Below, in pieces: positions 50,317-63,399 of a DNA stretch of 64,000 nucleotides; within the stretch, counting starts at the first letter, position 1; each line of letters starts with the position of its first letter. The DNA comes from the human T2T-CHM13v2.0 reference genome, Homo sapiens. The stretch lies in NCBI RefSeq assembly GCF_009914755.1, contig NC_060930.1, one strand, 5' to 3'. A program made the translations under genes and the position numbers. The notes under the pieces were generated by a model, which was not told the origin of the DNA, ran no database searches, and saw only the letters and a list, made by a program, of their open reading frames with translations.

Positions 50317-50604
<288 letters not shown>

Positions 50605-52086: not shown

Positions 52087-52461
<375 letters not shown>

Positions 52462-53796: not shown

Positions 53797-53800
53797 AACC

Positions 53801-54257
53801 TGCAGCAGGATAAGCCCCAGACAAAAACCCCTCAGACACCGAGTTAAAGAAGGAAGCGGTATATTCAGCCGGGAGCATCAGCAAGACTCCTGTCTCAAGG
53901 GCCGAGCTCCCTGAGTGAGCAATTCCTGTCCCTTTTAAGGGCTCACAACTCTAAGCAGGTCCTCTTGAGATTGTCGTGATTGATTGAGCAAGCAGGGGGT
54001 ACGTGACTGGGGGGTGCTGCATGCACCAGTAATTAGAATGGAACAGAATAGGATAGGGATTTTCACAGTGCTTTTCTATATGATGTCTGTAATTACAGAT
54101 AACCGATTAGGTCAGGGGTCCATCTTTAACTACCAGGCCCAGGGTGTGGTGCTGGGTTGTCTGCTTGTGGATTTCATTTCTGCCTTTTAGTTTTTACTTC
54201 TTTCTTTGGAGGCAGAAATTGGGCATAGGACAATATGAGGGGTGGTCTCCTTCCTTA
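53801..54257 (-). repeat. HERV-E 3' LTR (457 bp)
   Basis: Aligns end to end with 61091-61548. Confidence 0.95.
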
Positions 54258-54273
54258 TTCCCCCTGCTTTGAG
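54258..54273 (-). promoter_or_regulatory. Polypurine tract
   Basis: Minus strand CTCAAAGCAGGGGGAA directly before the 3' LTR. Confidence 0.85.
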
Positions 54274-54289
54274 AATCTCACTCAATAGT

Positions 54290-56335
54290 GGGAGTTCTCA
54301 CTTTCATTCTCACTACGCATGTCTTCTCGCAAGACAGATCAATAGTGATTCATATAGTACCCCTATGCTGAAGCATTTTGGTTAACTAAGGTAGCGATGA
54401 AGCTTTTTATCATTTGAAGAAGTACAGGTAGCAAGCAAGGGAGCAGTAAGCAGGTTCCTGTTACTATTATAACTCCTATTATAAGAGTTTTAAATCCTCA
54501 TAGCCCTGGGAACCATTTTCCAAACATGGCCCCAGGATCAAATCCATGCCACACTTGCACAGGCACATGTGCCAGTTTTGTCATATCTCTAACTATGTCT
54601 TCAATTACTTGCCCTTGATCATCTATGTGTAGACAGCAATTAGTAAGGTTAAATTTTCTACAGACCCCTCCTTCAGCTGCTAGCAAGTAGTCAAGAGCCA
54701 ATCTATTTTGATAGGTAGCATTTCTCATCTGAGTTTCTTGCTGGGCTAGAATAGTCAAGGCTCTGCCGGTTTTATTAGTGATTATTTCTAAGACAGCTTG
54801 TAACCGTATGATTCGGTTGATCATGTAAATGGGGGTCTGGTATCTCCATGAGCCGTCTTGTGCCCAAGTAGCATGCCATAATATTGTATGATTCTCTCAG
54901 GGGGCCATTCATCATCTTTCCAATTTCCTATAGCTATGCTTCTCTTTTTGCGGGAAGCATAGACAGGGAAGCCCAGGAGTTTGCCTGTTTTTATGGGCAG
55001 TAGGAAGAAAGATGGTTTAATAGTGCCAATAACACAACTACCTGCCCACTGGTCAGGTAATTTGGCATAAGCTGTATGCCCACATATCCAGTATAATCCA
55101 GTGGGGCTGTCCAGTCCTGGTGGGACTCTGGGTGGGTCCACATTGTTTGCAACTTTGGGAATATGCTAAATGGATTCCTCTCTGTGTGATTTGAACTCCA
55201 CCAAGTGACTATTTTTGTGGTACCATTATACAGTTTCTGTCCCAGACAACTAAGTCGTCCTACGGGGTGAGTGAATTCTTTTCCTTCTCTAGCTATGCAA
55301 TATTGTCCAATAATTGAGGCTTTTAGGACCCAGAAATTATCAGGGTGATTCTTTTGAGCTGGGAATTCATCAGGAATTGTGTCTGTAGGTATTAATTCTG
55401 GGGCTTCCCATGGCCATTGATTTCCCATTACAGTTCCTCCACATGCAAAACATGAAGTGACATTGAGAGACTGGGCCACATGCTCGGCTAATTGCAAAAA
55501 CAAATTTCTTGTTTTTCCTGGAGTTTCTGGTACTGGCACATTTAGTTCATCATAGAAAGTTTGAAACACTGGCTCAGGAAAGCGTTTGTAAACTTCTCCT
55601 CAAACCAAGATATTTACTGGAGGATCCAGTCCAGCCCCGTCGATTCCTAAGGTCACACACTCCCCTTTTTTCCAACGAGGATGAAGGGGATTGGTTATTA
55701 CTAGCTCTAAGGGGTTACATTGTCCCTTAGTATAGGAAGGGCCATTTTTTCCTTTCTGAAGGTGGACTGGATCCTTTTCATTTTTTATCCAAGTAGCCCA
55801 AATGACACAAGACCAGTATCCACATACATTTCCACACAGTCCTAATTCATGACAAATGTACTTATTTTCGGTCATATAGCCTTTTTCCTAACTAAAGAGC
55901 CACATCCCCTTCCTAACTTATTGCTATTAATGACAGTACAGGCATCAAATTTCAAGATTATGCATTTGGGAATCCCTTTTTCTTCTGTTCTGGCTAATAC
56001 TTGTATCATTTATGAGTCCTCACCAGTCTTCAGTCATTAATCTTATTTCAAAAACTGTGGACATGGGAGGCTCAGAGGGGTCATAACACACATCTGGTTG
56101 GTCGTTTCCTGGCTACATACCTTGTACTGAGTGTCATTATATAAATATGTTCCTTTTAAACTTCCTAGGCATTCATAGTAACTATAGAACAGAAAGATTG
56201 TTTTAACTTGCTGCCCTACCTCGGTAACCTGATGTATACACTGAGAGCAGTCTCCATGCAGGGAAAATCAGTGGAAGTTTTTACTATACAAGTCCAAATT
56301 ATAAGGAAAATGAGTCTCATGATGATTCCCCTCAT
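54290..56335 (-). pseudogene. env: HERV-E env, frameshifted
   Basis: Signal peptide MRGIIMRLIFLIIWTC from 56335; CGYWSCVIWATW; furin site RKKR; immunosuppressive domain [18 protein letters not shown]; CX6CC ([10 protein letters not shown]). Split over several ORFs; 3' end approximate. Confidence 0.9.
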
Positions 56336-56448
56336 GCTTCGGCTGTGCGTGGACCAGTCAGCTTCCGGGTGTGACTGGAGCAGGGCTTGTCGTCCTCCTC
56401 AGAGTCACTTTGCAGGGGTTGTCCAGGCTCTGTTTTGCCTCCCAGGTT

Positions 56449-57625
56449 TCAGTGGCTGAAAGGTTTCACATGGCTGTGGTGGATCCAGGCTGGGATTCCT
56501 TCTACCTTTACAGCCGTGGGGGTGGTCAGGATGACGGTCTGAGGTCCTTTCCACCGTGGCCGCAAAGGGGCTACGTTCCAGTCCTTGATCCACACGCCAT
56601 CACCTGGAGAGTAAGGGTGAACTGGGGAGAATAAGCTGATGGGACACCTCTCATTTACCCAAGTTGAGATTGTTTGTGTAATTTTTCCTAAAGCCTGTAG
56701 CTGTCGCTGTAATTCAATTTCACCTAACTCTTGGGGAGTGCCTGGAAGCTCCTGTAGTATTGGAGGAGGCCTATGATACAGCATTTCATAAGGGGAGTAT
56801 TCTATTTTCTTAGAAGGAGTGCATCTAATTTTAAACAATACCATAGGAAGGGCCTGTATCCGCTTTAATCCTGTTTCATGACATACTTTCCTTAAACTAT
56901 TTTTGATAGTCTGATTCATTCGCTCCACCTTTCTGGAACTCTGAGGTCGGTAGGCGGCATGTAGCTTCCAAGTGATTCCTAATGCCTTTGCTGTCTTCTG
57001 TACCAAGTCAGCCACAAATGCTGGCCTGTTATCTGAGCCGATTCATAAGGGCAGTCCAAACCTAGGAATAAGATCTCGGAGAAGCACACAGGTTACCTCG
57101 TAAGCCTTTTCAGTTCGTGTTGGATAAGCCTCTACCCACCCAGAGTAAGTACACACAAGAACCAGCAAATACTTGTTACCTCCACATTTCAGCATTTCTG
57201 TGAAATCCACCTGAAGATCCTCAAAAGGAGCCGCTCCATAAGCTTGTATGCCAGGTGGAACAGTGGGGCCTTGCCTCTTATTGTGCTGTCGGCAAGTAAT
57301 GCACTGTTGTGCTACTGCTTTGGCAAGGGCTGGCAAGAGTGAGATGTAGAAGTACCGGCCTAACAATTTTTCAAGTGACTCTTGTCCTAGATGAGTGGTT
57401 TTGTGCATGGCCAATACGATTATGGCTCCTAGCAACTGCAGCACAGCTACTCTTCCACCTGGCAGTCTGATCCATCCTCCTTTTATTACTTGCCCCTCTT
57501 CTGTGTGGAAGAAGTCTTTTTCTTCCTTAGAATAGGTAGGTACCAGGTCAGGTGTTTGAGGGAGTAAGGGGGCTGCTACTGATGCCCGGTAAGGGGTAGA
57601 TGCTGCTTTTCGAGCTTCTGAATCA
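56449..57625 (-). pseudogene. pol: HERV-E pol 3' part: end of RNase H plus integrase, disrupted
   Basis: ADSEARKAA; HHCC zinc finger (HKTTH...CITC); QVDFTE; YRPQSSRKVERMN; RWKGPQTV...WIHHSHVK. Confidence 0.92.
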
Positions 57626-57794
57626 GCTGTAGTGCGCTATGCCAATTGGGTGTCCGCACTAAGTTCAGCATCAATATGGTGACCTCCCGGAAGCGGGGGA
57701 ACAGCAGGTTGCCTAAGGAGGGGTGAACCGGCCCAGGTCGGAAATTGAGCAGGTCAAAACTCCCGTGCTGATCAGTAGTGGGATCGTGCCTGTG
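57626..57794 (+). pseudogene. 7SL/SRP RNA S-domain fragment (about nt 83-251 of 7SL), embedded in pol
   Basis: gctgtagtgcgctatgcc...gtgtccgcactaagttc..gcatcaatatggtgacctcccgg...ggttgcctaaggaggggtgaaccggcccaggtcggaaa..gagcaggtcaaaactcccgtgctgatcagtagtgggatcg.gcctgtg. Ungapped against recalled human 7SL, about 9 mismatches in 169 nt. The S domain is absent from Alu elements. Confidence 0.95.
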
Positions 57795-58946
57795 CTGTCT
57801 GCAGATCTGAGCTTTCTTCTTGGACACCTTATACCCACAGTCCTCCAGGTGCCAAAGCAGGGCATCTGTCCCTTTAGCACACCTGACTGCTGTGGAGTGT
57901 CCCAGCAGAAGGTTGTCCACGTACAGGAGCAAGATGCAGCCTAGGTCTTTAGCAGGAAGCTTTTGCAGGTCTTGAGCCAGGGCCTCCCCAAAGATAGTAG
58001 GGGAGTTCTTGAACCTTTGGGGAAGCCGGGTCCAAGTGTACTGAGTAGTGACACCTGACTCCGGATCTTCCCACTGAAAGGCAAACAGCTTCTGGCTCTC
58101 AGGAGCTAGTCTGATGCAAAAGAAGGCATATTTTAAGTCCAGACAGGTAAACCAGCTGTCCTCAGCTAGCAGCAGCCCTAATAATGTGTAAGGGTTAGGA
58201 ACTGTTGGGTGCAGAGTCACTGTAGCTTGGTTGACCAAGCATAAGTCCTGTACTGGCTGGTAGTCCTTGGTCCCTGGCTTAGGCACAGGCAGGAGGGGGG
58301 TGTGCCATGGAGACTAGCAAAGAACTATAATTCCATAGGCTTTGAAGTGCCTGAGATGAACCTGGATTCCTTTAAGAGCTTCTCTGGGAACTGGATACTG
58401 CTTTTGTCTAATTGGTTGTGCCCCAGGCTTAACTTCTATGAGTATGGGGGCTTGGTTGACCACCAGTCCTGGAGGATTATCCTCTGCCCATACTCGGGGC
58501 CATTGCTTAGCTAGAGCTGATTTTATCTCTTGGCCTGGCTTGGTTAGAAAAAGTCTCCATTCTTCTTCCCGGGGGACCGTAAGGGCCTTGATAACTCCTG
58601 TTCCCGGTAACTTTAGCTGTAAAGAGCCCTGTTTTGTAAAGCAGATGGTGGCTCTCAGCTTGCTAAGCAGGACTCTTCCCAGCAATAGCAAAGGACAGTC
58701 AGGCATGTACAAGAACTGGTGAACTATCTTATGTCCCCACACCAAGCAGGTCCGTGGTAGACAGAAAGCCTGTTTAGTGGAAACTCCTGTTGCTCTGATT
58801 ATATCAATGGTTTTCTTGGATAAGGGGGCGACCAGGGTTGTCACTACTGAATGTTCAGCACCAGTATCGACCAAAAATTTAATGTCCTTGCCCCTAATTG
58901 TAATCCTGACCATGGGCTCCTTGGGGGTGCTTGAGCCCGGTCCCCT
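57795..58946 (-). pseudogene. pol: HERV-E protease plus N-terminal RT, truncated
   Basis: FLVDTGAEHSV and LLGRVLL (protease); DLKYAFF, QYTWTRLPQRFKNSP and YVDN (catalytic YVDD mutated); stops at KKAQICRQ. Confidence 0.93.
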
Positions 58947-60542
58947 TCAGTCCAGTAGCCCTTCAGCCAGATTGAACAAAGCTCCCTCATCTTTATCTGA
59001 GGTCTTTTGTTCTGAATCACCTTGCTTTTCCTTCAGCTGGGGACACTTATCTTTCCAATGTCTTATTTCCTTATAGTAGGTGCATTGGTTATGTTGCAAG
59101 CGTGGGGGATTAGACTGGGTATTCTTCCCGGAACCCCCCCTTTCCCTCTCCTTTCAGAGGAATTCCCCTAATGGCCGTGGCCAGTAAGTTGGCGTTTCGC
59201 CTAGCCTGGCGTTCACCTTCCTTACGGCTTTCTCTGCGGCTTGTTGCATCTCTATTCACAAACACTTGATTGGCTGTTTCCAGTAACTGTGAGGTATTCA
59301 CACCTGCAAACTCAGCCTTGTTTCTGCAATTTTCTCCTGATATCTTTCACGCTTTGACTAACTAAGGCCATGTTAATCATGCGCTGATCTTCAGGGCTAT
59401 CTGGATCAAAAGGAGTGTACATACGGTAAGCCTCACACAGTCTTTCATAGAATTGTGCCGGACTCTCCTCTTTTCCTTGGATGACCTCAGAGACCTTATT
59501 TACATTTGTAGCCTTTTGAGACCCTTTCTTTAGACCTTCTATTAATGTCTCACGGTACCATCTTAGCCTCTTCACGTCTGGTCCCTCATTCGGGTCCCGT
59601 TGGGGGTCTGTTCCTGGCAGCTGAATTCTTATATATTCTTGGGGGTTTTGGTAATCGGCCGGGACGTGCTCTTCTAGCCACTTAGTTGCTGCCTGGAGCA
59701 CCCTTCGCCTTTCATCTGTATTAAAGAGGTACATGAGCAGCTGAGGCTATCAGCCCAAGTAGGATTATGAGTCTGTATAATAGTTTGGAGCAAGTCAATT
59801 AAAGCTTGAGGCTTTTCAGTGTAAGATGGAGTATTATTTTTCCAATTGAGGAGGTCAGCAGAGGTGAAAGGTTGATACACAAAGGCACACCTTTCCACCA
59901 TGTGTCCGTCCTCATCTACCCCAGTATATCGCTGCTGTCTCAGGGGCATTTGGATTCCAGTCTTGGGCAGTAAGCGAGCTGCCAAGGGAGGAGTTTCTCC
60001 TGCGGCTTCACTTCCTCTTTTGTCTACTCTGGGCGGTCTAGGGGTGTGGTTATCTGGTGGAGGTGGAGGTGCTGTGGGCTCAGGGCTTGGGGAGCCCTTC
60101 CTCTCCATAAGGAGGGGGTACTGCTGGTACCAATTCCTGCCATGATTCTTCTGGTGTTGGGTCGGACAGACTTTTGGTGCCGACTTCCCTCTGCGGGTGG
60201 AGCGAGAACCTTCCTTAACGAACTGTTCCTTTGCTGCTAGTACTGCTGCTGCCTGTCCTCTTAACCACTGTGGGGGGTCCAAAACTAGCTGTAACCAAGA
60301 ATCTATATATGGGAAGTGATCTGGGTGTCCTGGCTTACAGGTTACCCTGTGCCGTACTTTCGAGACAAGGGACCTGTCCAGGCTTTCTTCTGATGGCCAA
60401 CCCACCTCTATGGCCAGTCTATCTCACACAAAGTTCTAAGTTTTCCTGGTATCATGATGCCTCTATAGTCTCCCTTAAATCCCTTTTTGAAATTTTTCAA
60501 TATAGTTCCTAGTGGGGTGGGCTTACTTTGTGCCTGACCCAT
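58947..60542 (-). pseudogene. gag: HERV-E gag, frameshifted
   Basis: MGQAQSKPTPLG (Gly2 myristoylation type); PTAPPP; YQPFTSADLLNWK; MHR VIQGKEESPAQFYERL; broken zinc knuckle CTYYKEIRHWKDKC; TGA stop at 58949-58947. Confidence 0.92.
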
Positions 60543-60647
60543 ATTTCCTCGAGACAAAACACCACACTCACACCACATGCACACCACAAAATGAAGAACG
60601 GGTAAAAAGGGCACACACACACTTTTACAGTTTACACCAAACCAGAA

Positions 60648-60747
60648 TCAAAACCAAAATCAGAGTATCAAGAAATCCAAGCCAGGTCAAAACCAAAACC
60701 AAAGTATCAAGCAATTCAAGTCAAGTCAAAAACAAAAACCAAAGTGC
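60648..60747. repeat. About 2.5 copies of a 39-bp tandem repeat in the HERV-E leader
   Basis: tcaaaaccaaaa(t/c)ca(g/a)agtatcaag... units start at 60648, 60687 and 60726. Confidence 0.8.
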
Positions 60748-61067
60748 CAGTACAGGCATGCTGTGGGTGATCAGGCCATGCTTCCACTCAAATGGAGTGG
60801 GCAAGTTCCAAAGACTAGTCTTACCAAGTTTCAGATGTCCGGACTCCAAGTGCCAGTTCCTTCCCGGTGTTCAGCCACTGTGTTGATCCTCCACGGGAGC
60901 CTGCCATGTGCTGCTCTGGCGAGGCATTCCACTGGGGCAATTGCCTACCCGGGAGCGCTCTCAGGATCCACGTCGCTCAAGCTGGCCAGAGTCCCCTGCG
61001 GGGATGCTCCACAGGGCAGGCCTAAGCCGCCTAAGGGGCTGCCTCCACTGTCCGTTAATCACCACGT

Positions 61068-61085
61068 TTCCTGGTCAGGGAACCA
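61068..61085 (-). promoter_or_regulatory. Primer-binding site complementary to tRNA-Glu
   Basis: TGGTTCCCTGACCAGGAA versus TGGTTCCCTGACCGGGAA (17/18), 5 nt from the LTR end. Confidence 0.92.
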
Positions 61086-61090
61086 AGAAA

Positions 61091-61548
61091 TGTAGCAGGA
61101 CAAGCCGCAGACAAAACCCCTCAGACACTGAGTTAAAGAAGGAAGTGGTTTATTCCACCGGGAGCATCAGCAAGACTCCTGTCTCAAGAGCTGAGCTCCC
61201 TGAGTGAGCAATTCCTGTCCCTTTTAAGGGCTCACAACTCTAAGGGGGTCGCTTGAGAGGGTCGTGATTGATTGAGCAAGCAGGGGGTACATGACTGGGG
61301 GCTGCATGCACTGGTATTTAGAATGGAACAGAATAGGACAGGGATTTTCACAGTGCTTTTCTATACAATGTCTGTAATCTATAGATAACATAACCAATTA
61401 GGTCAGGGGTTGATCTTTAACTACCAGGCCCAGGGTGTGGCACTGGGTTGTCTGCTTGTGGATTTCATTTCTGCCTTTTAGTTTTTACTTCTTTCTTTGG
61501 AGGCAAAAATTGGGTATAAGACAATATGAGGGGTGGTCTCCTCCCTTA
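61091..61548 (-). repeat. HERV-E 5' LTR (458 bp)
   Basis: Adjacent to the PBS and followed by TSD AACC. Confidence 0.95.
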
Positions 61549-63399
61549 AACCTGGTGGAATGCAACTGAAGGAGAAGGATTGGAGATCTGCACTTATCAA
61601 AACAGCAAATCAACAAAAAGGTAAACAGCTTATTTTTCTGAATTTTGAAAACATTTTATGATGCTGCCTACATTTATTAAAGAACACATGACCATAATGA
61701 TAATAGTGAAAATTAAGTGATGATTAATAGTCTCTCTCTCTGTTTTTATGTGTGAATATTTCCATATTAGGAAAAAGAAGTGTCTTTGTTTCTTAAGGTC
61801 CGATGCTCCAAAATGGAATAACGTGACTTATAACCCTAAATATCTACTCTCATGACTGACACCACCCAAGATCCAGGGAATCACTTCATATATATCCTTT
61901 CCAGTATCCTATATCCTTGAAAGAGAAGGCAGCTGTATTTAAATGCCACAAATGTTTGTGGGCAGTTTCCTTGCCAGTCTGCAAAACAAATAATGCTTTG
62001 AGTGGAGGGAAGATTTGAGCAGGGGAATCATTTAGCTAAGATAAAAGACAAATTAACTTGTCAAATGATTTCTCACAGACAAGAAGAAGGCAGTAGATTC
62101 TTGTATTATAAAAGATCATTTCCCGTAATACCAAGCATACTGTTTCTTGCTTCATTTCATGTTGCAGTTTATGGTTCCAGTATTAACCACAAATCATGAT
62201 GACATTCACAACAGTTGCACCTGGTGGCTGAGGGACATTTTATAGAATTAAGGTATTTATGTTACTTCTAGACATAACATGAATTGTGATACCAGCTCAA
62301 CTAGCTGAAAATTGAACACGGGAATTATGAGTAGTTTGAATTGTATTAACATACACAATAAGATTTATGTAAATTTTTAAAAATTAAATAAAAACCTTAA
62401 ATATTCAATTTTAAATTTTTATGTTTTATAATTTTAATAACTAATGTTGAATATTTCATGAGATAATTTTTTGAAAATGTAAAAAATAATTTTAATTTTT
62501 GAATTAGTTTACATTAATTTTAATTTGCTTTTTTGATGAAATAGTATTCAAGCTTTGCATGCACTGAATATGATTACATATTGTCTTTTCATCTTTTAGA
62601 ATAATTGCTACCAGTAGATCTTAAAATAGGTGAAAATATTAATAATTATTATGAAATAATCATTTTGCTAAAATGAAAGCAAGAAAAACACATTTTATGT
62701 AATAAATAATAGATCAAAAATTAAACTTGTCTTTATTACTGATTTATACATTAATCATGCATCAACAGTACAACCAGACATGTGCAATAATAACTAAATT
62801 CATTTGTCTTTGATATCTTGCTAGTTTTCAGCCTTATGAAACCATAGTGTTTGTTACCCATGTCTTTGGATTTTTTCATTAGGAAAGTGTATTTGGCAAG
62901 GTAGGGAGATAAGACATATGTTTAATGGTATGTGAGCCTTATTTTTACCCTCCCCTGGGCCCCACTGCTGTTAAAGGAAGAACTAAACAAAGAAGACAAG
63001 AAACTTGGTCTAAACCGGAATGTTGTGTGATAATTTAAGGTGTTGATAAAAGCAGACTTTAGTCTCAGGCAAAGCCAGTGAAGAGAGAAAACTGAAGTCA
63101 GGAGTTAGCTGATGAGTGGAAGAATAAGGGAAAGTTGAGAGACTACGCTGAAAAGTTCGGATTTTGAAGCTTTGCCTGTTCTTTTGGACTGCTTGAGTTA
63201 CTCTGACTTTTTCTGTGTTTTCATGCCAATTATGCTGTTATTTTCAGTCTTTATTAGCTGGTTTATATATCACCTCATAATTCCCAATAGATATCTTTAG
63301 TGGGTTCACATGTCTGTGTGAAAATTTAGGTATGCAATAAAATCATATGTATTATGAATAAATAAATATGTGTGCTTAAATTTTTTTCTTTGAGTTCTC

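What the first reader, a model, noticed from the sequence alone, without database searches (positions are those of the whole stretch)
57626..57794. Host 7SL RNA S domain captured inside a HERV-E pol gene, replacing the RT C-terminus and RNase H
Seen: 169 bp matching the central SRP19/SRP54-binding S domain of 7SL sits between RT motif KKAQICRQ and the RNase H tail ADSEARKAA. There is no poly(A), no TSD and neither Alu-domain end, so it does not look like an L1-mediated 7SL retrocopy. Established: in MLV-type pol these motifs are about 390 aa apart, full-length HERV-E is about 8.8 kb (this copy is 7.75 kb, fitting a 1.1-1.2 kb loss plus the insert), and 7SL is among the most abundant host RNAs in retroviral particles. 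Inference: a fossil of RT switching template onto co-packaged 7SL and back, i.e. a deletion-with-insertion recombinant that reached the germ line. The fragment may already be annotated as an RN7SL pseudogene; the viral context and mechanism are the novel part.
Basis: partly seen in the sequence, partly recalled or inferred. Interest (0 to 1): 0.92.

Follow-up and report, generated by a model that had tools for sequence, protein, structure and literature searches.

The report
7SL RNA patch inside HERV-E pol
A 169-base piece of the cell's 7SL RNA sits backwards inside a dead HERV-E provirus, exactly where about 1.16 kb of its polymerase gene is missing, and it is either a fossil of a reverse-transcription accident or a later DNA-break repair patch.

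Summary
Window 57626-57794 (+) is 7SL nt 83-251, the S domain (Rfam 126 bits; 160/169 identical to the chr14 7SL genes). It replaces 1157-1167 bp of pol (RT end, connection, RNase H) in an otherwise colinear 7,748-bp HERV-E provirus (53801-61548, minus strand, 4-bp TSD). The joints are clean, with 3-bp and 2-bp microhomologies, no poly(A), no TSD and no filler.

Plain RNA-to-RNA copy choice during minus-strand synthesis would give a sense insert.

Both junctions are unique in this genome. None of 29 related pol loci or 2 LTR-to-LTR copies carries any Rfam RNA. Of 89 other 7SL loci fetched, one lacks both Alu-domain ends, and it looks L1-made.

Dating is uninformative: the insert is about 0.6 times the provirus age, range roughly 0.15-1.7.

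Two readings remain:
- A reverse-transcription-stage patch, using 7SL cDNA or plus-strand synthesis (about 0.5).
- Post-integration break repair with an RNA-templated patch, i.e. class 2 templated insertion or endonuclease-independent type (about 0.37).

Primate orthologues, not available here, would decide. Moderately interesting; a new member of known kinds.

The parts
53797..53800 (.). Left copy of the 4-bp target-site duplication (AACC) of the provirus
   Evidence: Read directly next to the LTR end. The same 4 bases follow the other LTR at 61549-61552.
53801..54257 (-). 3' LTR of the provirus (the provirus is on the minus strand)
   Evidence: Aligns to 61091-61548 with 32 mismatches in 452 aligned columns and 11 gap columns.
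54501..54896 (-). env remnant
   Evidence: Weak Pfam TLV_coat match, E 7.6e-4, below the curated cut-off.
56452..57625 (-). Last residues of RNase H (ADSEARKAA) followed by integrase, in a different frame from RT
   Evidence: Translation. Pfam zf-H2C2, rve and MLVIN_C.
57626..57628 (.). Left-junction microhomology (GCT), shared by HERV-E and 7SL
   Evidence: HERV-E copies align up to 57628 and 7SL aligns from 57626.
57626..57794 (+). 7SL RNA nt 83-251 (S domain plus 14 nt of the helix 5 5' strand), antisense to the provirus. Annotated as RN7SL564P.
   Evidence: Rfam RF00017 126.2 bits, model 97-251. 160/169 identical to the chr14 7SL genes.
57793..57794 (.). Right-junction microhomology (TG), with further imperfect similarity just inside the 7SL part
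   Evidence: 7SL aligns to 57794 and HERV-E copies align from 57793. A few HERV-like loci align from query base 21-25 of the 66-base junction query.
57795..58313 (-). RT polymerase domain, cut off after KKAQICRQ. The stop-to-stop frame 57579-58313 reads on through the whole antisense 7SL piece.
   Evidence: Pfam RVT_1 positions 1-193/205, E 3.7e-20. Translation; ORF list.
58317..58946 (-). Protease
   Evidence: Pfam RVP, E 8.5e-14.
59315..60423 (-). gag (matrix and p30 capsid), in two frames
   Evidence: Pfam Gag_MA and Gag_p30.
61068..61085 (-). Primer-binding-site-like 18-mer, five bases inside the 5' LTR
   Evidence: Read. That it is complementary to the 3' end of tRNA-Glu is recalled, not tested.
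61091..61548 (-). 5' LTR of the provirus
61549..61552 (.). Right copy of the 4-bp target-site duplication (AACC)

Best explanation
**Reading.** The patch was made during reverse transcription of the HERV-E genome that became this provirus, before integration. It is a retroviral 'deletion with insertion' in which a host nucleic acid from the virion bridged two distant points of pol.

**Shown:**
- The insert is a copy of canonical 7SL, nt 83-251.
- It is antisense to the provirus.
- It exactly replaces 1157-1167 bp of pol.
- Each joint has 2-3 bp of microhomology and no extra bases.
- The rest of the provirus is colinear with its relatives.

**Inferred.** The insert is antisense, so the usual RNA-to-RNA switch in minus-strand synthesis cannot have made it. 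One of two routes is needed:
- (a) The growing minus-strand DNA left the viral RNA at the RNase H tail and copied a single-stranded 7SL cDNA already made in the particle. It then landed back on viral RNA about 1.16 kb upstream.
- (b) The growing plus strand left the minus-strand DNA after the KKAQICRQ codons and copied co-packaged 7SL RNA from nt 251 down to nt 83. It then landed about 1.16 kb downstream.

**Consequence.** The product lacked RNase H and put integrase out of frame. The provirus was therefore defective from the start, was integrated by proteins of the incoming particle, and left no progeny.
For: **Anatomy.**
- Clean replacement with GCT and TG microhomologies and no filler.
- Colinear with L150 and L151 everywhere else.
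- Intact LTR pair with a 4-bp TSD.

**Source.** It is canonical 7SL, not a sampled pseudogene.
- Five of the 9 differences are CpG transitions that recur in 36-57 of 118 pseudogene loci.
- The four remaining derived bases (three at non-CpG sites, plus a G-to-T change inside the CpG at nt 202-203) are shared by only 1-8 loci.
- None of the 12 loci listed with the most shared bases has more than one of these four.

**Not a usual L1 product.**
- 22 of 22 other 7SL loci scanned with Rfam are full length.
- Of 89 further S-core loci fetched, only L067 lacks both ends, and it ends at nt 201 like the TSD-bearing tailless copies.
- So the only clean, internal-only, TSD-less 7SL piece seen in the sample lies inside a retroviral pol.

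**Literature.**
- 7SL is packaged by retroviruses. Its reverse-transcription products occur in endogenous reactions and were 'patched into an experimental recombinant'. Host sequences with fortuitous microhomology can splint non-homologous junctions (PMC4997597, section 5.1 read).
- 7SL DNA is made in HIV-1 virions and infected cells (PMC2175372, passages).
- Intramolecular template switching gives 'deletions with insertions' (PMC5086612, passage).

**Timing.** An insert as old as the provirus is allowed, and an age of 10% or less of the provirus age is disfavoured (P=0.012).
Against: - **Orientation.** The insert is antisense, so the commonest recombination route (minus-strand RNA-to-RNA copy choice) is excluded and a less usual variant is needed. 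A break-repair patch has no orientation preference.
- **Timing.** The point estimate of insert age is about 0.6 of provirus age. The likelihood ratio of same age against later ranges from 0.14 to 1.75 depending on the CpG-decay parameter, and is 1.1 with non-CpG sites only. This gives no support.
- **The rival fits equally.** Size, clean joints, microhomology and the lack of TSD and poly(A) fit class 2 templated insertions equally well (PMC5110952).
- **No lineage.** No second copy with either junction exists, so nothing shows passage through a virus.
- **No other case.** None of 29 related pol loci or 2 LTR-to-LTR copies carries any Rfam RNA.
- **Untested premise.** That HERV-E particles packaged 7SL is extrapolated from other retroviruses.
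- **Odds.** My 0.5 rests partly on rough base-rate reasoning, not on a computed census.
Confidence: 0.5

Rival explanations
1. Post-integration break repair. A double-strand break, or two, inside the resident provirus lost about 1.16 kb. It was sealed with a short cDNA copy of cellular 7SL RNA made by a cellular reverse transcriptase (L1 ORF2p acting without its endonuclease, or another RT). The cDNA was primed and joined through 2-3 bp microhomologies. This would be a class 2 templated sequence insertion, or an endonuclease-independent-type insertion, that happens to lie in an ERV.
For: - Class 2 templated insertions are RNA-derived and 73-414 bp long (median 191). They lack TSD and poly(A) and show microhomology (PMC5110952, passages). 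The 169-bp patch fits on every count.
- Endonuclease-independent L1 insertions in the human genome (21 loci) come with deletions of target DNA (PMC1920257, abstract).
- L1 machinery does act on 7SL: there are many retrocopies (430 S-core matches) and 7SL/L1 chimeras (PMC13174262, passages).
- Either orientation is equally expected.
- The age estimate peaks below the provirus age (maximum-likelihood f 0.47-0.81).
Against: - It needs a double coincidence: a rare kind of patch templated by 7SL in particular, landing inside a retroviral pol, which is a small share of the genome.
- Among the 89 other 7SL loci fetched, no clean TSD-less internal-only piece was seen outside an ERV.
- The deletion of about 1.16 kb is larger than the 'microdeletion' described for class 2 events.
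Confidence: 0.37
2. DNA-level event. Replication-based template switching, or capture of a DNA fragment, copied 169 bp from a 7SL gene or pseudogene into the provirus while deleting 1.16 kb.
For: Microhomology at both joints is also the signature of replication-based template switching (established knowledge, not tested).
Against: - None of the 12 most-sharing loci listed, out of 118 sampled 7SL loci, shares more than one of the four rarely shared derived bases.
- The closest sequences are the chr14 genes, on another chromosome.
- Only 118 of at least 430 loci were sampled.
Confidence: 0.08
3. An ordinary L1-mediated 7SL retrocopy inserted into pol, later trimmed on both sides by deletions that also removed 1.16 kb of pol.
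For: L1-made 7SL copies are common. Truncated ones exist, with 3' ends at nt 199-232.
Against: - It needs two independent deletions that each remove an Alu-domain end, the poly(A) and the TSD, and leave joints with no scar.
- HERV-E homology abuts the 7SL piece on both sides with overlap.
- There is no A-run and no repeat of flanking sequence.
Confidence: 0.03

Closest known systems
[quoted passage not shown]
   Same: Host 7SL-derived sequence joined into a retroviral genome during reverse transcription, with microhomology-guided junctions and deletion with insertion. Known to me only through the review PMC4997597.
   Different: Those are cell-culture recombinants. This would be a germ-line fossil in a HERV-E. 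The original paper was not held, so the orientation and extent of its 7SL part could not be compared. Here the insert is antisense and S-domain only.
Class 2 templated sequence insertions (Onozawa & Aplan) and endonuclease-independent L1-type insertions (Morrish 2002; Sen 2007)
   Same: A short RNA-derived patch (73-414 bp), with no TSD, no poly(A), microhomology at the joints, and loss of target DNA.
   Different: Those are post-integration chromosomal repair events at arbitrary sites. The template here is 7SL and the site is a retroviral pol. The deletion is about 1.16 kb rather than a microdeletion.
L1-mediated 7SL retropseudogenes, including tailless 3'-truncated copies
   Same: Same source RNA, and similar divergence from the gene.
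   Different: Those are full length (22 of 22 scanned), or 3'-truncated at nt 199-232 with TSDs in the four copies where I read a repeat. This piece lacks both ends, the TSD and any A-rich end.
Alu/B1 SINE origin from 7SL
   Same: A breakpoint near the Alu-domain/S-domain boundary of 7SL.
   Different: It is the complement of Alu: Alu keeps the two ends and drops the S domain, while this piece keeps only the S domain. It has no sign of mobility (junctions unique).

Membership tests
Metazoan SRP RNA (Rfam RF00017) | Sequence and structure match above the gathering score | tested here: met
   126.2 bits against 70, E 1.7e-32.
Metazoan SRP RNA (Rfam RF00017) | Complete RNA with both Alu-domain ends (model 1-299) | tested here: not met
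   Only model positions 97-251, i.e. gene nt 83-251. It is a fragment, not a gene.
HERV-E-type gammaretrovirus-like provirus | Paired LTRs flanked by a 4-bp target-site duplication | tested here: met
   LTRs at 53801-54257 and 61091-61548, with AACC on both sides.
HERV-E-type gammaretrovirus-like provirus | gag-pro-pol-env order with MLV-type domains, and colinearity with other copies | tested here: met
   Gag_MA, Gag_p30, RVP, RVT_1, rve and MLVIN_C on the minus strand in that order, plus a weak sub-threshold TLV_coat match for env (E 7.6e-4). 91-92% identical and colinear with L150 and L151.
HERV-E-type gammaretrovirus-like provirus | Primer-binding site for tRNA-Glu | not tested
   An 18-mer at 61068-61085(-) looks like one from memory. 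No tRNA comparison was run.
L1-mediated 7SL retropseudogene | Target-site duplication flanking the 7SL copy | tested here: not met
   The flanks are two pol points about 1.16 kb apart in relatives, with no repeat.
L1-mediated 7SL retropseudogene | Native 3' end with poly(A), or an A-rich internal priming site | tested here: not met
   It ends at nt 251 and is followed directly by pol sequence.
Class 2 templated sequence insertion / endonuclease-independent insertion | No TSD, no poly(A), microhomology, insert of about 70-400 bp | tested here: met
   169 bp, with GCT and TG overlaps. Criteria taken from PMC5110952.
Class 2 templated sequence insertion / endonuclease-independent insertion | The event happened in chromosomal DNA after the surrounding sequence was in place (pre-insertion allele in other species or individuals) | not testable with these tools
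   No primate genomes or population data were available. Dating is uninformative.
Retroviral deletion-with-insertion (host-RNA patch made during reverse transcription) | The insert replaces a colinear stretch of the viral genome, with microhomology at both switches | tested here: met
Retroviral deletion-with-insertion (host-RNA patch made during reverse transcription) | Sense orientation, as expected from minus-strand switching between RNA templates | tested here: not met
   7SL is on the + strand and pol on the - strand. A cDNA template or a plus-strand switch is needed.
Retroviral deletion-with-insertion (host-RNA patch made during reverse transcription) | The event is as old as the integration | tested here: inconclusive
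   Insert: 3/143 non-CpG differences and 5/13 CpGs lost. LTR per-branch rate 3.2%. Likelihood ratio 0.14-1.75.

The most novel reading that the evidence does not exclude
This is a germ-line fossil, roughly 15-32 million years old, of a retroviral reverse-transcription accident. A HERV-E replication complex used 7SL, packaged from the host and probably already copied into cDNA inside the particle, as a bridging template. If so, it is physical evidence that an ancient primate gammaretrovirus packaged and reverse-transcribed 7SL. It would also be a natural example of an antisense host-RNA patch in a provirus.
Probability: 0.5. Interest if true: 0.6.

Novelty: new member of a known kind. Interest (0 to 1): 0.45.

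Why it matters
**If made during reverse transcription.** The patch would be a rare natural record of which host RNA travelled in ancient HERV-E particles. It would also show that host-RNA 'patch repair', known from cell culture, reached the primate germ line. The antisense orientation would point to 7SL cDNA or plus-strand synthesis as the route.

**If it is a repair patch.** It would be one more RNA-templated break repair, notable only for its template.

**In both cases:**
- RN7SL564P is not an ordinary L1 retrocopy.
- Its annotated span is too wide.
- It explains why this provirus lacks RNase H.

**Literature.** I found no description of it:
- 'Harlequin' + '7SL': the two papers hold both words but do not link them.
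- '7SL' + 'endogenous retrovirus' + 'template switching' + 'insertion' + 'host RNA': 4 papers, of which I read passages from two.
- 'RN7SL' + 'pseudogene' + 'HERV-E': 0 papers.
- '7SL' + 'HERV' + 'provirus' + 'captured': 7 papers, judged from titles and abstract starts only.

Subscription journals and repeat-database notes were not searchable.

Tried and rejected
1. **Harlequin idea.** From memory I suspected that Harlequin/HERV-E recombinants carry this 7SL piece as a family feature. This is not supported.
   - The Repbase review describes Harlequin without 7SL.
   - The 39 other matches to the 301-base query cover only the 7SL part and share no flank with the window.
   - Junction queries found only the window itself spanning a joint. 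Left: 19 of 19 candidates scored. Right: 40 of 74 scored.

2. **Genome-wide census of internal-only 7SL pieces.** This was only partly possible. A 25-base S-core pattern has 430 matches, but only 100 are listed. I fetched 89 of them. The other 330 were not examined.
   - By a strict BLAST threshold, 46 of 90 sequences (self included) are full length.
   - Most of the rest are near-full or 3'-truncated.
   - L130 and L131 extend to nt 5 with a permissive alignment. L105 has a poly(A). L139 has Alu-domain sequence upstream.

3. **Dating** the insert against the LTRs was uninformative.

4. **APOBEC-type strand bias** in the 9 differences: 3 C-to-T, 3 G-to-A and 3 others, so none (my count).

5. 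**Link to 7SLrem.** The known virion S-domain fragment is 111 nt or about 100 bases, shorter than this 169-base insert. Its coordinates could not be read.

6. **Other host RNAs in related proviruses.** 0 Rfam hits in 31 loci.

7. **Closed or missing sources.** Papers not held: PMC238240, PMC2937644, PMC254795, PMC2168973, PMC2738136 and PMC2213631. So the orientation of host patches in experimental recombinants could not be checked.

Full report
**What is there**

Rfam's metazoan SRP RNA model matches window 57641-57795 on the + strand at 126.2 bits (gathering score 70), covering model positions 97-251 of 299. BLAST against the three chr14 7SL loci extends the match to 57626-57794. Identity is 160/169 to L002 and L003, and 159/169 to L004. 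The gene in L003 occupies 1419-1718, so the piece is 7SL nt 83-251. That is the S domain plus 14 nt of the 5' strand of helix 5. Both Alu-domain ends are absent.

**The host element**

The piece lies in a provirus spanning 53801-61548 (7,748 bp).
- Its LTRs are 53801-54257 and 61091-61548, flanked by the 4-bp duplication AACC.
- Pfam domains run gag, protease, RT and integrase with falling coordinates, then a weak env remnant below the curated cut-off. The provirus is therefore on the minus strand.
- Translation of the minus strand shows ...YVDN...KKAQICRQ running straight into the reverse complement of the 7SL piece.
- ADSEARKAA, then integrase, resume in another frame just past it.

So the 7SL piece is antisense to the provirus.

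**What was lost**

- Two LTR-to-LTR relatives in the same genome are colinear with the window copy from LTR to LTR at 91-92% identity. The exception is 1167 bp (L150) or 1157 bp (L151) that the window lacks.
- In 11 close copies the two flanks lie 1145-1186 bp apart, by my subtraction of the coordinates.
- In L151 the missing stretch encodes the end of RVT_1, RT_RNaseH_2 and RNase_H positions 5-125/141.
- The window keeps RVT_1 positions 1-193/205.

**The joints**

- HERV-E copies align up to 57628 and again from 57793. 7SL aligns from 57626 to 57794.
- The overlaps are GCT on the left and TG on the right.
- The right joint has some further imperfect similarity. A few HERV-like loci align from base 21-25 of the 66-base junction query.
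- There are no untemplated bases, no A-run and no duplication of flanking sequence.

**Uniqueness**

- A 301-base query across the piece found only the window itself matching end to end. The 39 other scored matches cover only the 7SL part and have no HERV-E flanks.
- 66-base queries centred on each joint found only the window spanning them. Left: 19 of 19 candidates scored. Right: 40 of 74 scored.
- Rfam finds no RNA family in 29 other HERV-E-like pol loci or in the two LTR-to-LTR copies.
- There is thus no 7SL-carrying lineage in this genome.

**Is it an ordinary 7SL retrocopy?**

No.
- All 22 other 7SL loci scanned with Rfam match model 1-299.
- A 25-base S-core pattern has 430 matches genome-wide, of which 100 are listed. 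I fetched 89 of these.
- By a strict BLAST threshold, 46 of 90 sequences (self included) are full length. Most of the rest are near-full or 3'-truncated at nt 199-232.
- Of the nine flanks I displayed, I read target-site duplications without poly(A) in L065, L071, L076 and L103.
- L105 is 5'-truncated with a poly(A). L130 and L131 reach nt 5 under a permissive alignment. L139 has Alu-domain sequence upstream.
- Only L067 (nt 75-201) lacks both ends. It ends where the tailless copies end and sits in an A/T-rich site, with a possible degenerate duplication.
- The remaining 330 matches were not examined.

**Source**

- Of the nine differences from the gene, five are CpG transitions. Those recur in 36-57 of 118 other 7SL loci.
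- The four remaining derived bases (nt 148, 158 and 161 at non-CpG sites, plus a G-to-T change inside the CpG at nt 202-203) are shared by 8, 1, 4 and 5 loci.
- None of the 12 loci listed with the most shared bases has more than one of these four.
- The piece therefore descends from canonical 7SL and decayed on its own. A copy from a sampled pseudogene is unlikely.

**Timing**

- The LTRs differ at 32 of 452 aligned sites. At non-CpG sites they differ at 27 of 438, which is 3.2% per branch after correction.
- The insert differs from the gene at 3 of 143 non-CpG sites and has lost 5 of 13 CpGs.
- The insert's age is about 0.6 of the provirus age. An age of 10% or less is disfavoured (P=0.012), and twice the age is also disfavoured (P=0.018).
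- The likelihood ratio of 'same age' against 'any later time' is 0.14-1.75 depending on the CpG-decay parameter, which rests on only 7 LTR sites. It is 1.1 using non-CpG sites alone.
- Timing does not discriminate.
- The LTR divergence corresponds to about 15-32 million years for rates of 2.2e-9 to 1.0e-9 per site per year. The rates are recalled.

**Mechanism**

The window + strand is the proviral minus strand, and it carries 7SL in sense. A polymerase copying 7SL RNA makes antisense DNA. So the strand that copied 7SL RNA was the viral-sense strand, running from the KKAQICRQ codons into 7SL nt 251 and down to nt 83, then on to the RNase H tail.

That fits three settings:
- (i) Plus-strand synthesis in the reverse-transcription complex switching onto co-packaged 7SL RNA.
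- (ii) Minus-strand synthesis switching onto single-stranded 7SL cDNA.
- (iii) A cellular reverse transcriptase extending a broken chromosomal end on 7SL RNA after integration.

Literature support for (i) and (ii):
- Retroviruses package 7SL.
- 7SL reverse-transcription products occur in endogenous reactions and were patched into an experimental recombinant.
- Host sequences with fortuitous microhomology can splint non-homologous junctions (PMC4997597, passages and section 5.1).
- 7SL DNA appears in HIV-1 virions and infected cells (PMC2175372, passages).
- Template switching yields deletions with insertions (PMC5086612, passage).

Literature support for (iii):
- Class 2 templated insertions are RNA-derived and 73-414 bp long. 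They lack TSD and poly(A) and show microhomology (PMC5110952, passages).
- Endonuclease-independent L1 insertions come with target deletions (PMC1920257, abstract).
- L1 forms chimeras with 7SL (PMC13174262, passages).

**Weighing**

- For a reverse-transcription origin: the template is the host RNA most typical of retroviral particles, and the site is a retroviral genome. Under break repair these are two independent coincidences. No clean TSD-less internal-only 7SL piece turned up outside an ERV among the 89 other loci fetched.
- Against it: the antisense orientation needs a less usual route, there is no second copy, and timing gives no support.
- My rough base-rate reasoning is inference, not a computed census. 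It gives about 0.5 for the reverse-transcription patch, 0.37 for post-integration repair, 0.08 for a DNA-level copy and 0.03 for a trimmed L1 retrocopy.

**Novelty**

Both candidate mechanisms are known, so this is a new member of a known kind. The fragment is already annotated as RN7SL564P. Four searches found no description of its proviral context. For the hits, and for two of the four hits, I saw only listings. Several key older papers were not held.

Noticed in passing
window 61487-61620: The annotated alternative first exon of FABP7 (+ strand) starts inside the provirus's 5' LTR (61091-61548), antisense to the provirus. An LTR-initiated FABP7 transcript is therefore possible.
   Followed up: no
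window 57579-58313 (-): The RT reading frame stays open through all 56 codons of the antisense 7SL piece and stops 16 codons later. Integrase is in another frame. This is probably chance in G+C-rich sequence.
   Followed up: partly
window 57566-57815: The RefSeq span of RN7SL564P (250 bp) is wider than the real 7SL homology (57626-57794, 169 bp). The extra bases are HERV-E pol.
   Followed up: yes
L065, L071, L076, L103 (chromosomes 2, 6, 8, 3 of G000): These 7SL retrocopies are 3'-truncated at nt 199-216. They have clear target-site duplications but no poly(A), as if primed at the internal A-rich stretches of 7SL ('tailless' retropseudogene type).
   Followed up: partly
L143, L144, L146-L148 (C13 and C14 short-arm coordinates) and L130/L131 (C9): Groups of near-identical, old (69-78% identity) 7SL copies share the same extents. 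They are evidently carried along in segmental duplications.
   Followed up: no
window 50317-50480 and 52119-52282: A direct repeat pair at 85% identity lies upstream of the provirus, in stretches masked as repeats. It is probably two copies of an interspersed repeat.
   Followed up: no
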